Shown here: positions 36,293-61,917 of the stretch, piece after piece
Layout of the letters: each line of letters begins with the position of its first letter
Numbering within the stretch: position 1 is the stretch's first letter
NCBI GenBank assembly: GCA_951406725.2
Contig: OX597823.1
Location: 34,472,001 to 34,536,000 of the forward strand
Origin: Octopus vulgaris
Taxonomy: Eukaryota
DNA length: 64,000 nt
Direction: 5' to 3'
Notes under the pieces: generated by a model
Database searches by the model: none
Seen by the model: the letters and a program-made list of their open reading frames with translations, nothing else
Told to the model about the DNA's origin: nothing
Translations under genes and position numbers: made by a program

Positions 36293-39200
36293 TCATCTTT
36301 GTGGAATGTTTTCAAAATCTTGGTAATCGTACATGTCACTAGGAACCAAATCCTGAATATTATGGCCTTTATCACTATCAGATGATTGTTTTCTTAAAAT
36401 GGTGGGTCGAAAGTGAACAGTTAACTTTACACGAGAATGGTATTTTGTGATTGGTTGGGTATTTAAAAATGAATTTTTCCAACCTTTCTTTTTCCATTTT
36501 CTATGCTTTGTCTGATGCTTAGATTTTGTGTAAGGGTAATTGTCAATATAAACATCATTGCTCACAGACTTTTCAAGATTGTTATTAGAATCGATTGCAT
36601 GGAATGGTTTTGATTTCTGCCTGTCCTCTCTCTCAGGCTTTGAATCCTTTACTTCATCAACAAAGGTAGAACTTGAAATCTTCTGGTTATTACCTGGTCT
36701 ATAATCTTCTGGATTAATACCAGAGGCAGAGTTAGATTCAAGATCATCACCAGAAGCAGAGTTAGAATCAAAGTCATCATCATCATCATTAGAAGAGCTG
36801 GGGTTGAGATTATTCCCAGAGGCAGAACTATAATCTGTATCATCAACAAGTGTTAAACTAGATGCTGAACTACTAGGTGAGGATTTTCTAGGGTCAGGTT
36901 TCCTGTATAGACTATGAATTAAGGAATAACTCGATCCTGATTTATTCCTATTAGCAGGAATAGAGTTATTGAATACAGATATTGATGCTGAAGTAGTTGT
37001 AGGAGAAATTAATGTGGAATTTTGATTATTTTCAGGAGATTTAATAGAATTGTCTGAAACTGAATTGGAACCTGGTTTTTCACCTTTCAGTGAAGAGATA
37101 CCTGCATATCCACCTGATGGAGAAGGAGTATCTGGGTAATGTCCAGAACCATAGTTGGAATGTAAATTTTCTCCAGATGCAGAACTGGAATCCATATCCT
37201 CACCAGAGGCAGAATTAGACTCCATATCCATACCAGAGGCTGAATTTGTGTCCATATCATCTCCAGATGCAGATCTCAAGTCAGTATAAGCTTTGGATAT
37301 TGAAGAAGACGATGCAATATTTTGGGTGATTGAAGCAGAAAAATCATCAATGTTAAGTGTAGTGTTTGTGTTTAAAGTATCTTCTGGAGTGAAAGTAATA
37401 TGTGGTGAGACTCCAGAAGTTCGGAGAGAACTACTTAAAGCTGAAGTAAGATGTGGTGCTGCTAAAATGGTAGAAGAAGAATCTGGAAATGTTTTTGGAG
37501 AAAAACTAAAAAGTTTGTAACTACTTTGTATTGGTGTGGAGTATGAACTTGTAACAGGGGTGTGAGTTGAACCAGGGAATATTTTAGGGGGTATTGTTGA
37601 TGAGATGTCACTGTTTATGACGGATGGAGGACGTGGAGTTGTAAGAGAAAGAAATTTATATATTGTAGAAGATTTTATAGGGTGAGAAGTAGAACTTGAA
37701 GATATTTTGGCTTCATGAAGATTTTCATAACTTAATGATTCTTCCTTAGAACCAGAACTAGACTTCAAGTCATCCTCAGAATCAGTACTTGCTTCCAGGT
37801 CATCCCCTGAATCAGTGCTAGATTCCTGGTCATCCTCAGTGTCAGAACTTGATTCTAGATCATTTCCAGAGGAAGAACTAGGATCTAAATCTTTTTCAGA
37901 AATTGTGGATGTGAGTTCACTGTTTACAACAGATGCAGGATGTGGAGTTGTAACAGAAAGAAATTTATATTTTGTGGGAGATTTTGTAGAATGAGAAGAG
38001 AATGAAGTTATTCTGGATTCCGGATAATTTACAGACATTGAACTGGAGAGAATAACATCTCCAGAGACAGAACTGGGGCCATAATTATATTTAGAGATAG
38101 AATTGGAATGAAGATAATTCTCTGATGACCTAATATGAGTTTCTGAGAATCTTTTGGAGGGAATAGCAACTGTTGTGTCAGTGTGTGACTGCAGGTTACC
38201 TCGAGAGTTAGAGCTAGACTCTAGATAGTCCCCAGAATTAGTACTTGACTCCAAGTCATCCTCTGAGTCAGAGCTTGATTCTAGATCATCCCCAGAGGAA
38301 GAGCTAGATTCTGAATCATCTTCTGTGCTAGAGCTAGATTCCTCTTTATCATCAATTTCCAAATGGGATGGAGAACTAGTTGTTTCAACAGAAACAGATT
38401 TACTGTTGATATAAACACTAGGTGTGTTGATATAATTACTGACAACTGAAGAATATTGAGTAACACTATTAATTGATTGATATAATATAGAACTAGTAAT
38501 GTGGTAACTATTTGAAACTGGGGTAGGTTTGGGCATTTTAGGTGGTATTGTTGATGTGATGTCACTGTTTATAACAGATGTAGGATGTGGAATTGTAAGA
38601 GAAAGGAATTTATATGTTGTGGGAGATTTTGTTGATTGAGAAGTTGAGCTTGAAGGCATTCTGGTTTCACGAAGATTTCCATAACTGGAACTAGAAACAG
38701 ACTTAAGCCGTGAAATATAACTAGAATGAAGGTAACTCAGTGATGATCTAACACGAGATTCTGCGACTTTCTCTGAAGAAGTGGTAACTTTTATAGGAAA
38801 TTTTGATTTTAAATTTAGTTCAGTATCAGAACTAGATTTTATCTCTTCTCTAGAACCAGAACTAGACTTCAAATCATCCTCAGACTCAGTACTAGCTTCC
38901 AGGTCATCCCCTGAATCAGTGCTAGATTCCTGGTCCTCCTCAGTGTCAGAGCTTGATTCTAGATCATTGCCAGAGGAAGAACTGGGATCTAAATCTTTTT
39001 CAGAAATTGTGGATGTGATGTCACTGTTTACAACAGATGCAGGATGTGGAGTTGTAACAGAAAGAAATTTATATTTTGTGGGAGATTTTGTAGAATGAGA
39101 AGAGAATGAAGTTATTCTGGATTCCGGATAATTTACAGACATTGAACTGGAGAGAATAACATCTCCAGAGACAGAACTGGGGCCATAATTATATTTAGAG

Positions 39201-60500: not shown

Positions 60501-61917
60501 CTATCAGTAATTCCTTTACCTGGGTCACTTTCTTTTGACATCCACCCCCATTCTCAAGTCATCCTTTTCTATTTTATTATTCACTGATCAACCCTTTCTG
60601 TGCCACCTGTTATCTCCCGCTTTCTCCTGAAAGGCATACCTCATCTCTAATCTCCTCCCATGTCAGTTATCATTCTGAACGCTATCTCATATCTGCCATC
60701 GATGCAGCTCCATTTTTGTTCGCCACTCATTATTCCATCCCTACGTACCCCTGACTTCCATTTCTGTTACTGTACGACCCTCTTCCCCACACTCCCACCC
60801 ATACATCATTTCCATATTCCTCATCTACCTACAGTTTTACTACACAGCCACAGCCAACTACCACCGTCTCCTTTCTGAGTCGCTCCTTTTCCTTTCACCT
60901 CTCCCCAAGCTCGTATCTACCTTCGACTACACCTCCAATCTTTTTCACATTTATCTCTACTCCCATCTCTCACCCCCTTCTCACACTCATATGAACTTGT
61001 CCCCCGCCACCCTGCTGCATCTTCTGTCCATATCTTCCCTTCTACTCACTTTCTTCTACTTAGTTCTCACATCACGCCACCACCATCTTTATTTGTCCCT
61101 CCACCTACTCCTACCCGACGTCATATAATGCAGAGTGGCCCTTACACCTGTACTCCGCCCTTCATCGTATTCTAGCCCCTCACCACCCGGCATAAGGCCA
61201 CCTCCCCCTCCCACGCAGGAGAGAGAGAGAGGGAGAGAATTTCCTTTGTTTTCTGCAGCTGGAAACTTTTCGTCTGCTGCTGGTACTTCTGTGCCTTTTA
61301 GCATCGCGCTTCTACACGAGATGCTTTCTCCACACGAAGATCGTAGTATTACGATGTCTTACAGTATAGCCATGCTACGATGTACAGATTGCTCTCTCTC
61401 TCTCTCCCTCTCTCTCTCGTTCTCTTTCATCTTCTCTCTTTCTATCCCTCTATCTCTCTCTTTGTGTATATATATATATATATAAACTGTAAAAACGGAC
61501 AAAGAGGAGGGAACGGAACGAAGTGAGAATTCGAAAAATCGAAAATTCAAACGAATATATGTATGTATGTATGTATGTATGTATGTATGTATGTATGTAT
61601 GTATGTATGTATGTATGTATGTATGTATGTATTTGAATGTGTGTGTGTGTGTAAACGTGTGTGTGTGTATGTGTATAATCGTGTGTGTGTGTGTATAAGG
61701 TATAATCGAATAGGTAGAGAGTGGGTGACTGCACTGACCTGTGACGCGGTCGCCTTCATCTTTGTCGCAACGCCATATATTCCGAATTCCGTAAGCATAG
61801 ATCTCTGGACGTGTTTCATTTTCGTTGACAAATGGATTACTCAGTGGAATTGCATATTGTTTCCCCTTACGTCTCTTGTTAACATTAATTCTTAATACTT
61901 TTCCCAGCAAAACAGAC
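36293..61917 (-). CDS. HHIPL: HHIP-like protein (GSDH/soluble quinoprotein glucose dehydrogenase-type beta-propeller), 5'-partial gene with giant Ser/Asp-rich terminal exon; exons 61917-61739, 60165-60022, 58503-58374, 56756-56614, 51860-51779, 48563-36293
   Basis: Exon translations contain HHIPL motifs ([76 protein letters not shown]). All junctions are GT-AG and phase-compatible. HHIPL1 vs HHIPL2 cannot be assigned; upstream exons lie outside the window. Confidence 0.9.
37960..39020 (-). repeat. ~1.05-kb block duplicated 7380 bp away (copy at ~45340-46400) within the giant exon
   Basis: Lines 37981-39000 are nearly identical to 45361-46380; ORFs 38281/45661 and 38781/46161 are offset by 7380. 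Confidence 0.9.
40000..43975 (-). repeat. Near-identical 1953-bp (651-aa) tandem duplication inside the giant exon
   Basis: Matching ORF-track peptides recur at exact 1953-nt offsets (39999/41952, 40449/42402, 40543/42496, 41500/43453); sequence at 40201 matches 42154. Confidence 0.92.
49270..49592. repeat. ~80-bp imperfect inverted repeat abutting (TA)n inside a family A SINE; possible Penelope-like element end
   Basis: 49270-49350 (attatatagagggcattattacac...aaataaacac) is the reverse complement of 49511-49592 with a few mismatches. Confidence 0.8.
49783..50016 (-). mobile_element. SINE family B, full length, 15-bp TSD
   Basis: TSD tatgaatattaatac at 49768-49782 and 50017-50031. Confidence 0.88.
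50662..51300 (-). mobile_element. SINE family B copy followed by family C/RTE-3'-end repeat with (CAT)n tail
   Basis: 50662-50885 is homologous to 49783-50016; 50885-51300 is homologous to 15093-15480. Confidence 0.75.
51779..51860 (-). CDS. HHIPL: HHIPL internal exon (end of propeller)
   Basis: ctccag|; [29 protein letters not shown]|gtaaag; 82 nt. Confidence 0.92.
52575..53425 (-). mobile_element. Head-to-tail tandem array of SINE family B units (~4 units)
   Basis: Repeated aatttatcgaccccgaaaggatgaaaggcaaagtcgacctcggcggaatttgaactca core at ~52665, 52847, 53113, 53298. Confidence 0.85.
54410..54977 (-). mobile_element. Second tandem array of SINE family B units (~3 units) between (TAA)n tracts
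   Basis: Same core at ~54495, 54665, 54848; long (TAA)n at 54337-54392 and a short one at 54977-54992. Confidence 0.85.
55395..55624 (+). mobile_element. 3' fragment of an RLE-type (R4/Dong-like) non-LTR retrotransposon
   Basis: [47 protein letters not shown] resembles the C-terminus after the restriction-like endonuclease; preceded by (TAA)n. Confidence 0.65.
55900..56230 (+). mobile_element. RLE endonuclease fragment of an R4/Dong-like non-LTR retrotransposon
   Basis: [52 protein letters not shown] (PD-(D/E)xK-type RLE motif); starts after (CAA)(TAA)n. Confidence 0.75.
56428..56513. repeat. (CA)n microsatellite
   Basis: Direct inspection. Confidence 0.97.
56614..56756 (-). CDS. HHIPL: HHIPL internal exon
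   Basis: ctgtag|; [48 protein letters not shown]|gtaagt; 143 nt. Confidence 0.92.
56880..57312 (+). mobile_element. SINE family A, full length with central (TA)n
   Basis: Homologous to 21218-21610 over its whole length. Confidence 0.85.
57562..58338. mobile_element. TIR-bounded non-autonomous element (GGATCTT-type ends) in an HHIPL intron
   Basis: ggatctttgtgcttttcatcactgtttacaatt (57562-) is inverted as aattgtaaacagtgacgaaaaccagaaagattc (-58338). Confidence 0.72.
58374..58503 (-). CDS. HHIPL: HHIPL internal exon
   Basis: tttcag|; [46 protein letters not shown]|gtaagt; 130 nt. Confidence 0.94.
59300..59668 (-). mobile_element. tRNA-derived SINE (family D)
   Basis: Minus-strand head gcgtaatggtccagtggttagggcagcggactcgcggtcgtaggatcgcagtttcgattcc with A- and B-box-like motifs; body homologous to 33520-33620. 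Confidence 0.75.
59676..59837. repeat. (GACA)n(GATA)n microsatellite
   Basis: Direct inspection. Confidence 0.96.
60022..60165 (-). CDS. HHIPL: HHIPL internal exon
   Basis: cttcag|; [49 protein letters not shown]|gtacgt; 144 nt. Confidence 0.93.
61739..61917 (-). CDS. HHIPL: HHIPL internal exon
   Basis: tttcag|[61 protein letters not shown]|gtcagt; 179 nt. Confidence 0.93.

What the first reader, a model, noticed from the sequence alone, without database searches (positions are those of the whole stretch)
36293..61917. HHIP-like beta-propeller fused to a ~4,090-aa Ser/Asp-rich repeat tail encoded by a single 12.3-kb exon
Seen: the 4035-aa ORF is not a standalone gene (its apparent start is TTG). 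It extends upstream in frame to an AG acceptor at 48564, whose phase matches the HHIPL exon ending YKLVDPF-AG|gt, and the joined sequence [11 protein letters not shown] continues the HHIPL consensus. Known: vertebrate HHIPL1 ends in an SRCR domain, HHIP in EGF repeats, and these proteins are ~700-800 aa. Inference: this lineage replaced the short tail with a huge, nearly Cys-free, disordered domain with no transmembrane segment. That would make a secreted >4,500-aa matrix/mucus-type molecule with a possible Hedgehog- or carbohydrate-binding head, e.g. a matrix-tethered morphogen sink or a structural gland/egg-case/cartilage protein.
Basis: partly seen in the sequence, partly recalled or inferred. 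Interest (0 to 1): 0.9.

Follow-up and report, generated by a model that had tools for sequence, protein, structure and literature searches.

The report
Octopus HHIP-like gene, giant optional tail
An octopus gene for a secreted Hedgehog-interacting-like protein can make either its usual 601-residue form or a 4,662-residue form with a huge acidic, serine-rich tail; the tail is transcribed, is shared with the paper nautilus, and looks built to carry many sugar chains, like an invertebrate counterpart of cartilage proteoglycans.

Summary
The 12.3-kb minus-strand frame is the last exon of an octopus HHIP-like (HHIPL) gene. Joined to seven upstream exons it gives 4,662 aa with no internal stop.

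The tail has not replaced the short end. It is an alternative made by reading through a GT donor at 48493. Using that donor gives the annotated 601-aa protein exactly.

An RNA-like contig runs from the upstream exon across that donor for at least 873 nt, and a second species label shows the same read-through. Argonauta hians has a 3,994-aa database protein with the same head, post-donor stretch, module motif and C-terminus, but independently expanded repeats.

The tail has 21 acidic blocks in Ser/Thr/Pro spacers. Ser-Gly pairs are 2.3-fold enriched (109 vs 47), many among acidic residues, which fits glycosaminoglycan attachment sites.

Best reading: a secreted, switchable, aggrecan/versican-like proteoglycan isoform (about 50%). 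Glycosylation, tissue, the protein itself and RNA over the other 11 kb are untested. The head lacks HHIP's acidic loop, so Hedgehog binding is unsupported. It is a new variant of a known family.

The parts
61739..61917 (-). HHIPL exon 3 (beta-propeller, YGIRN motif). Exon 1 (signal peptide, cysteine-rich domain, start of propeller) and exon 2 lie outside the window at G000:C10:34587304-34586351 and 34551030-34550945
60022..60165 (-). HHIPL exon 4
58374..58503 (-). HHIPL exon 5
56614..56756 (-). HHIPL exon 6
51779..51860 (-). HHIPL exon 7, ends YKLVDPF-AG|gt (phase 2)
   Evidence: contig depth on exactly these bases in runs X1, X5, X6, X10
48493..48563 (-). Exon 8, shared 71-nt part, ending at the optional donor CTG|GTGAGT used by the 601-aa isoform
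   Evidence: short model equals P0001 letter for letter
36293..48492 (-). Read-through extension of exon 8, the giant tail to the stop codon; lies inside the last intron of the short isoform
47620..48492 (-). Unique 5' part of the tail: conserved [27 protein letters not shown] stretch with two conserved Cys (615, 623) and the first acidic Ser-Gly block
   Evidence: 31 of 37 residues identical to Argonauta; covered by contigs of X1 and X10
37740..47618 (-). Repeat core: modules of about 150-160 aa (acidic block of S-S-S-[G/E]-D-D-L-E-S-[S/T] decapeptides plus a Ser/Thr/Pro/His spacer with Y-K-F-L-S...P-T-S-V-I-N), with a higher-order 651-aa duplication
36293..37739 (-). Unique 3' part of the tail: SASG repeats and a conserved, basic C-terminal region ([11 protein letters not shown])
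   Evidence: 92% identical to O. bimaculoides P0127; last about 130 aa 63/120 identical to Argonauta
29844..29860 (-). Coding part of exon 9, the last exon of the 601-aa isoform (GILQM-stop)

Best explanation
The gene makes at least two secreted isoforms by choice at one 5' splice site (shown at transcript level for the first 0.9 kb). Splicing at 48493 gives a compact 601-aa protein: a folate-receptor-type cysteine-rich domain plus a six-bladed GSDH propeller. Ignoring that donor extends exon 8 into a 12.3-kb terminal exon and adds a disordered 4,066-aa tail; the full length is inferred from the open frame and from conservation. The acidic Ser-Gly blocks are most likely xylosylated and carry chondroitin- or heparan-sulfate chains, and the Ser/Thr/Pro spacers probably carry O-glycans (inferred). 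The long form would be a very large (505-kDa core), strongly anionic, water-holding matrix proteoglycan with a ligand- or sugar-binding head and a basic C-terminal anchor. It would work like aggrecan or versican, whose chain-bearing region also sits in a large repeat exon, but it is built on an unrelated head. The donor choice would switch a diffusible HHIPL into a matrix-bound one.
For: Transcript: in run X1 one contig (3,286 nt, depth 23.7) lies unbroken on 47620-48562, stops at the acceptor and continues for 2,229 letters, against 1,718 nt of upstream coding sequence. The depths on exon 7 (7.69, 6.96) equal that contig's depth over exactly those bases (7.68, 6.96). Five non-repeat intron bins are empty. 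X10, under another organism label, has 902 nt of the read-through with 43 differences; X5 and X6 have 311 and 336 nt.

Conservation: Argonauta P0126 has head and tail in one 3,994-aa model. O. bimaculoides P0127 and P0128 hold the 3' part of the tail.

Selection: 129 of 136 internal repeat alignments start in codon register, and 27 of 33 gaps are multiples of three. dN/dS is 0.33-0.71 in 7 repeat pairs against 0.88 in a neutral simulation.

Ser-Gly: 109 observed vs 47.4+-5.6 in 500 local shuffles, while Gly-Ser is 44. 62 of the 109 have at least 3 acidic neighbours, vs 22.7 expected. Argonauta has 69 vs 38.3. The excess also holds in the two ends outside the kilobase repeats (21 vs 9.3) and in one module (7 vs 3.0).

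Literature and machinery: Ser-Gly with nearby acidic residues in disordered regions is the xylosyltransferase preference (PMC10424144, PMC8418075 passages). A xylosyltransferase gene is in this genome. Aggrecan's chain region is one large repeat exon (PMC4648834 passages).
Against: No glycan, protein or tissue data. Motifs alone are ambiguous predictors (PMC8418075).

In the repeats the acidic residues mostly follow the Ser-Gly (SSSG-DDLE), whereas human CS sites have them mostly before it. Only 33 of 109 sites match [DE]-x(0-2)-SG. Repeat copies are not independent, and even the unique ends contain decapeptide repeats. In the Argonauta 5' end the excess is not significant (8 vs 4.8, p=0.07). 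In the aligned C-terminal part, Ser-Gly is only slightly better conserved than other Ser (8 of 11 vs 54 of 92). Argonauta's largest acidic blocks are mostly Gly-free (29 of 69 Ser-Gly lie in acidic blocks).

RNA evidence covers only about 0.9 of 12.3 kb. In X5, X6 and X10 the read-through contig has a minority of the upstream exon's depth (4.8 of 15, 7.3 of 43, 22 of 74; depth is a poor measure), and intron retention could give the short X5/X6 pieces. RefSeq models of two Octopus species do not include the long form.
Confidence: 0.5

Rival explanations
1. The long isoform is real, but the tail works as a heavily phosphorylated and O-glycosylated polyanion without glycosaminoglycan chains. It would bind calcium or form gels, like dentin phosphoproteins or mucin PTS domains, in mucus, skin, statolith, stylet or egg coats.
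For: Acidic blocks are 34% Ser and 36% Asp+Glu; spacers are 34% Ser+Thr and 7% Pro. There are 159 S-x-[D/E] sites. Argonauta expanded Gly-poor DLESSSD repeats. That secretory-pathway kinases phosphorylate such sites is recalled.
Against: S-x-E is below expectation (48 vs 76). This reading does not explain why 69% of Gly follow a Ser. There are no mucin-type Cys-rich domains. The argonaut eggcase proteome preprint has no occurrence of HHIP or folate in its main text (supplements not seen). This reading and the best one are not mutually exclusive.
Confidence: 0.28
2. The tail is a translated but mostly passive extended stalk. Only the post-donor stretch and the basic C-terminus matter: the C-terminus anchors to matrix and holds the head at a distance, or the tail is cleaved off. 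The repeats grew by unequal crossing-over under weak constraint.
For: The two ends are the best-conserved parts. The repeats expanded independently in each genus (651-aa vs 784-aa main period; only 159 of 4,089 positions lie in 12-mers shared with Argonauta). dN/dS of 0.33-0.71 is mild. Other HHIPLs have low-complexity stalks of 400-550 aa.
Against: The module design (acidic block plus Y[KR]F..PTSVIN spacer) is kept in three species, and the Ser-Gly order bias is kept in both genera.
Confidence: 0.15
3. The read-through is retained intron or unstable RNA, no giant protein is made, and the long frame is a by-product of amplifying a stop-free repeat.
For: The donor at 48493 is a strong GTGAGT. 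Annotated Octopus proteins are short. The read-through pieces in X5 and X6 are short and shallow. No protein evidence.
Against: The frame stays open over 3,400-4,100 codons in two genera, with alignable non-repeat ends and nearly the same stop position. Gaps are mostly in threes and dN/dS is below the neutral value. In X1 the contig shows no break at the donor.
Confidence: 0.05

Closest known systems
HHIP-like proteins (HHIPL1, HHIPL2 and invertebrate HHIPL)
   Same: Signal peptide, PF03024 cysteine-rich domain, PF07995 propeller; 45-57% identity across 40 aligned members; HNGG in 120 of 120 and G.RN.WR in 117 of 120 listed homologues. The family already varies at its C-terminus (SRCR, NTR, hydrophobic ends, Thr- or Lys-rich stalks).
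   Different: The tail is 4,089 aa, against a median of 187 and a maximum of 546 in the 97 of 120 homologues where the anchor motif was found. That search only covered proteins up to 2,000 aa. The tail here is acidic, Ser-Gly rich, and optional through donor read-through.
HHIP (vertebrate Hedgehog antagonist; PDB 3HO3, 2WFX, 7PGK)
   Same: Homologous propeller (E 2e-63) and N-terminal domain (E 2e-4).
   Different: The acidic ITLDDMEEMDG loop is absent (its role in binding the Hedgehog zinc is recalled), and there are no EGF repeats. HHIP binds glycosaminoglycans on other proteins (PMC8660895 passages); this isoform may carry its own.
Aggrecan and versican (lecticans)
   Same: A globular head followed by a very long repeat region with about 100 Ser-Gly sites in one large exon, with repeat number differing between species (PMC4648834 passages). 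Optional inclusion of the chain-bearing exons in versican is recalled.
   Different: No link modules, EGF, C-type lectin or sushi domain, and no sequence homology found. The tail is terminal, not internal. It is an analogue at best.
PQQ-dependent aldose sugar dehydrogenases (E. coli YliI, soluble glucose dehydrogenase)
   Same: 27% identity over 247 aligned positions; HNGG aligns with HFGG, and YGIRN is identical.
   Different: Secreted, disulfide-rich and multidomain. I know of no activity shown for any HHIPL (recall). That these motifs are the catalytic and cofactor-binding residues is also recalled.
Argonauta hians hypothetical protein GAB1599380.1 (Ahia01_000215200), and O. bimaculoides XP_052827340.1 'clumping factor A-like'
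   Same: Orthologous long form, and orthologous 3' piece of the tail.
   Different: Unnamed or misnamed gene models. The O. bimaculoides piece is annotated as a separate gene on a contig of the same length as the one carrying its HHIPL, with a consecutive accession number.

Membership tests
HHIP-like (HHIPL) family | Folate-receptor-type cysteine-rich domain followed by a GSDH beta-propeller | tested here: met
   PF03024 49.8 bits and PF07995 113.4 bits, both above cut-off
HHIP-like (HHIPL) family | N-terminal signal peptide, no transmembrane helix | tested here: inconclusive
   Hydrophobic stretch at residues 3-21 before the invariant HPQCLD, and no hydrophobic helix in the tail; no signal-peptide predictor was run
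HHIPL1 subtype | C-terminal SRCR domain | tested here: not met
   No PF00530 in P0001, P0126 or the tail
HHIP | Acidic Hedgehog-binding loop (…MEEMDG…) and two EGF repeats | tested here: not met
   Loop replaced by GGSGDPYGNSQ; no EGF; the loop's role is recalled
HHIP / HHIPL1 | Binds Hedgehog ligand | not testable with these tools
   Human HHIPL1 co-precipitates with SHH (PMC6686954 passages); involvement of invertebrate HHIPL is unshown (PMC9695228 passages)
Lecticans (aggrecan, versican) | Link-module G1 domain and lectin/EGF/sushi G3 domain | tested here: not met
   Pfam shows only PF03024 and PF07995
Proteoglycan core proteins | Ser-Gly sites near acidic residues in low-complexity sequence | tested here: met
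   109 Ser-Gly, 62 with at least 3 acidic neighbours, above all 500 local shuffles
Proteoglycan core proteins | Covalently attached glycosaminoglycan chains | not testable with these tools
   Needs lyase digestion and glycopeptide mass spectrometry
Gel-forming mucins | Cys-rich VWD / cystine-knot polymerisation domains flanking a PTS exon | tested here: not met
   Five Cys in the tail and no such Pfam domain
Secreted acidic phosphoproteins (DSPP-like) | Dense S-x-E / Asp-Ser-Ser kinase sites that are phosphorylated | tested here: inconclusive
   S-x-E 48 vs 76 expected; S-x-[D/E] 159; phosphorylation untested
PQQ-dependent aldose sugar dehydrogenases | HxGG and G-x-R-N active-site motifs | tested here: met
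   Aligned to E. coli YliI; function of the motifs recalled
PQQ-dependent aldose sugar dehydrogenases | Cofactor binding and sugar oxidation | not testable with these tools
   Needs an assay

The most novel reading that the evidence does not exclude
Octopods evolved their own aggrecan/versican equivalent by turning the last intron of HHIPL into a 12-kb optional exon. The result would be a 500-kDa core with up to about 100 glycosaminoglycan chains, headed by a sterol- or Hedgehog-binding domain and a propeller that keeps sugar-dehydrogenase active-site motifs. It would be a major core protein of octopus cartilage or connective-tissue chondroitin sulfate, with one splice-donor choice switching a soluble signalling modulator into a structural proteoglycan.
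Probability: 0.2. Interest if true: 0.85.

Novelty: new variant of a known kind. Interest (0 to 1): 0.58.

Why it matters
Invertebrate chondroitin-sulfate core proteins are poorly conserved and known from few species (PMC11632948, PMC8418075 passages). Cephalopods have cartilage rich in such chains (squid cartilage papers listed). I saw no named cephalopod core protein in the listings, which is a limited look.

This locus gives a concrete, testable candidate with predicted repeat peptides. It would be a convergent copy of the aggrecan/versican design on an unrelated head, and an example of a giant coding exon arising by donor read-through.

At the least it corrects annotation. The long isoform is missing from the Octopus models retrieved, and its 3' end is filed as a separate 'clumping factor A-like' gene in O. 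bimaculoides.

Tried and rejected
Searches that found nothing useful:
- phmmer of the first 163 tail residues against 1.84 billion representatives: 0 hits. It missed even the Argonauta protein, so the blank says little about squids, cuttlefish or other molluscs.
- ESM Atlas searches of the C-terminal 200 aa and of a repeat stretch: no usable hit, best score 0.76.
- Three look-ups in earlier scan findings returned nothing.
- Paper searches 'HHIP-like + Octopus' (0 papers) and 'hhip + octopus' (9 papers, 4 listed, none about this gene by title or abstract start) found no description of the long form. The library lacks most subscription journals.

RNA evidence not used:
- No listed sequencing run is on record as RNA.
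- RNA over the repeat core and the 3' end was not examined.

Explanations rejected:
- Transposon or paralogue origin of the repeats: all 21 genome matches to a module lie inside this ORF (counts are lower bounds).
- Stand-alone TTG-started gene: rejected by the acceptor, the phase match and the X1 contig.
- Pure assembly artefact: rejected for the tail as a whole, since three species have it. The near-identical 651-codon duplication (dS 0.021) could still be polymorphic or mis-assembled.

Left unresolved:
- The acceptor for the O. sinensis X2 ending (…ISVI) was not pinned down; six candidates.
- The AlphaFold job on the head had not finished after repeated collection attempts, so no model or fold search is reported.
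- No complex with Hedgehog was predicted, because no whole octopus Hedgehog protein was on hand.
- The HHIP-SHH structure paper was not held, and D383 did not occur in PMC4460154, so the loop's role stays recalled.

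
Full report
Setting. The window is G000:C10:34472001-34536000. A database protein named as Octopus vulgaris (P0001, CAI9728909.1, 601 aa) is identical to the upstream exon I searched with and lies on a contig of the same length.

Observation. tblastn of P0001 against 214 kb around the window placed all exons. 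With canonical GT/AG sites at every intron, a nine-exon model reproduces P0001 exactly. An eight-exon model that ignores the donor at 48493 gives 4,662 aa without an internal stop, about 505 kDa. The giant frame is therefore an in-frame extension of the 71-nt exon 8 and lies inside the 18.6-kb last intron of the short isoform. O. sinensis RefSeq isoforms (601 and 598 aa) also end just after this donor, and the O. bimaculoides model is 556 aa.

Is it coding? The other five frames have 160-635 stops. Random 4% substitution gave at least 5 stops in all 300 trials. Kilobase repeats fill 37740-47618. 129 of 136 repeat alignments start in codon register, 27 of 33 gaps in the closer pairs are multiples of three, and third positions differ most (9.1% vs 6.5% and 5.7%). 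Seven hand-picked, non-independent repeat pairs give dN/dS 0.33-0.71 against 0.88 for one neutral simulation.

Relatives. Among proteins of 2,248-7,156 aa, the first 230 tail residues found 1 hit in 537 candidates: Argonauta hians P0126, 3,994 aa, with the same two head domains. It matches 31 of 37 residues after the donor, including two Cys, and 63 of 120 near the C-terminus. Among shorter proteins, the C-terminal 160 aa found 1 hit in 300 candidates: O. bimaculoides P0127 (92%), clustered with a 1,159-aa piece. The repeats grew separately in the two genera (main periods 651 and 784 aa) from a shared module motif. All 21 genome matches to a module are in this ORF.

Is it transcribed? Twenty of 24 listed runs hold part of 47600-48600, and none is on record as RNA. 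I laid 4 of them on 47620-51950. In X1 a single 3,286-nt contig covers 47620-48562 with 3 differences, crosses the donor without a break, stops at the acceptor and has 2,229 further letters. The upstream coding sequence is 1,718 nt. The bin depths on exon 7 (7.69, 6.96) match that contig's depth of 23.7 over exactly those bases (7.68, 6.96), and five non-repeat intron bins are empty.

X10 (another organism label) has 902 nt of read-through with 43 differences. Of the 17 listed for it in the tail, giving 16 changed codons, 7 are silent and none is a stop. X5 and X6 have 311 and 336 nt. In X6 and X10 the contig ends 29 bases inside the donor, as a branch between two isoforms would cause (inference). 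RNA beyond the first 0.9 kb of the tail was not examined.

Anatomy of the tail. It is 26.7% Ser, 9.1% Thr and 15% acidic, with net charge -284. Twenty-one acidic blocks of about 40 aa (34% Ser, 36% Asp+Glu) are built from a decapeptide S-S-S-[G/E]-D-D-L-E-S-[S/T]. They alternate with slightly basic Ser/Thr/Pro/His spacers. There is no hydrophobic helix and no Pfam match. The end is basic in both genera. Ser-Gly occurs 109 times against 47.4+-5.6 in 500 composition-preserving local shuffles (maximum 65), while Gly-Ser occurs 44 times; Argonauta has 69 against 38.3. The excess persists in the two ends outside the kilobase repeats (21 vs 9.3), but is not significant in the Argonauta 5' end (p=0.07). 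Ser-Gly sites are hardly better conserved than other Ser in the aligned C-terminal part (8 of 11 vs 54 of 92). S-x-E is below expectation (48 vs 76).

The head. It has PF03024 and PF07995 above cut-off and is homologous to solved HHIP structures. It lacks HHIP's MEEMDG loop, and it keeps HNGG and YGIRN where E. coli YliI has HFGG and YGIRN. These motifs are family-wide (120 of 120 and 117 of 120), so the head is an ordinary HHIPL. Human HHIPL1 is secreted and co-precipitates with SHH (PMC6686954, passages). A role for invertebrate HHIPL in Hedgehog signalling is unshown (PMC9695228, passages). HHIP's N-domain binds a cholesterol mimic and glycosaminoglycans (PMC8660895, passages).

How it most likely works. 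Shown: two splice outcomes, an open and constrained frame, and conservation in two octopod genera. Inferred: secretion, disorder, full-length translation and modification. Xylosyltransferases prefer Ser-Gly near acidic residues in low-complexity regions (PMC10424144 and PMC8418075, passages), and the genome encodes one. Chondroitin sulfate is the default chain, but acidic residues after the Ser-Gly can favour heparan sulfate (PMC10570366, passages), so the chain type is open. I put 0.5 on a giant secreted proteoglycan isoform, 0.28 on a phospho/O-glycan polyanion without such chains, 0.15 on a passive stalk and 0.05 on no protein.

Comparison with what is known. It is a member of the HHIPL family. 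It is not HHIPL1-type (no SRCR), not HHIP, not a lectican and not a gel-forming mucin. It resembles aggrecan in design: a head plus about 100 Ser-Gly sites in one large repeat exon (PMC4648834, passages). Family tails are variable, with a median of 187 aa and a maximum of 546 among the 97 of 120 listed homologues in which the anchor motif was found; 23 were dropped for lacking it. That list is the top 120 of 867 hits and limited to 558-2,000 aa, so unrelated giant tails in other lineages are not excluded. No squid or cuttlefish orthologue was among the named hits, so the age of the exon beyond octopods is open.

Literature seen. Search listings only. Passages of the papers named above, of PMC11632948 and of the argonaut eggcase preprint 10.1101/2021.07.10.451900 (no HHIP in the main text; its supplements were not seen and could list this protein). 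Term searches in PMC2115498 and PMC4460154 returned no passages. No paper describing the long isoform turned up. The fused model itself already exists in GenBank for Argonauta as a hypothetical protein.

Verdict. A real, conserved, at least partly transcribed giant alternative exon on a known gene family, with a specific and testable proteoglycan signature. New variant of a known kind; interest 0.58.

Noticed in passing
window about 21700-24673, + strand: Last exons of a protein disulfide isomerase gene (thioredoxin domain with WCGHC, ending KHIEL-stop; PF00085 98 bits), convergent with HHIPL. The PDIA4/ERp72-like label is from recall.
   Followed up: partly
L029 (G000:C7:94827237-94827707, - strand): A second, much more divergent GSDH-propeller exon (36% identity to the HHIPL exon 1 region; PF07995 33.8 bits), possibly a distant HHIP-family paralogue.
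   Followed up: partly
P0001 residues 314-317 and 389-393; 120 listed homologues: HHIPL proteins across animals keep the HxGG and G-x-R-N motifs of bacterial PQQ sugar dehydrogenases, whereas HHIP has lost the RN. The family may retain a cofactor or sugar site.
   Followed up: partly
L001 1510-1336 (- strand); P0124, P0125: Exon 1 also reads through its donor for a short stretch; database proteins of 330-331 aa ending GGEVCITLP... suggest an exon-1-only truncated form in related species.
   Followed up: no
window 31800-33500, - strand: Decayed LINE-like retrotransposon with stops, inside the last intron of the short isoform (class judged by eye).
   Followed up: no
window 35948-36057: A 16-bp tandem repeat (about 7 copies) just downstream of the long isoform's stop, in its likely 3' UTR.
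   Followed up: no
window 39783-43688: Near-identical 1,953-bp tandem duplication inside the exon (dS 0.021); may be length-polymorphic between animals or sensitive to assembly.
   Followed up: partly
P0034, P0047, P0079 (one search hits): A hemichordate HHIPL has a 404-aa Thr-rich stalk with a hydrophobic end, and frog HHIPL2 proteins have 400-550-aa Lys/Thr/Pro-rich tails, so low-complexity tail growth recurs in this family.
   Followed up: partly
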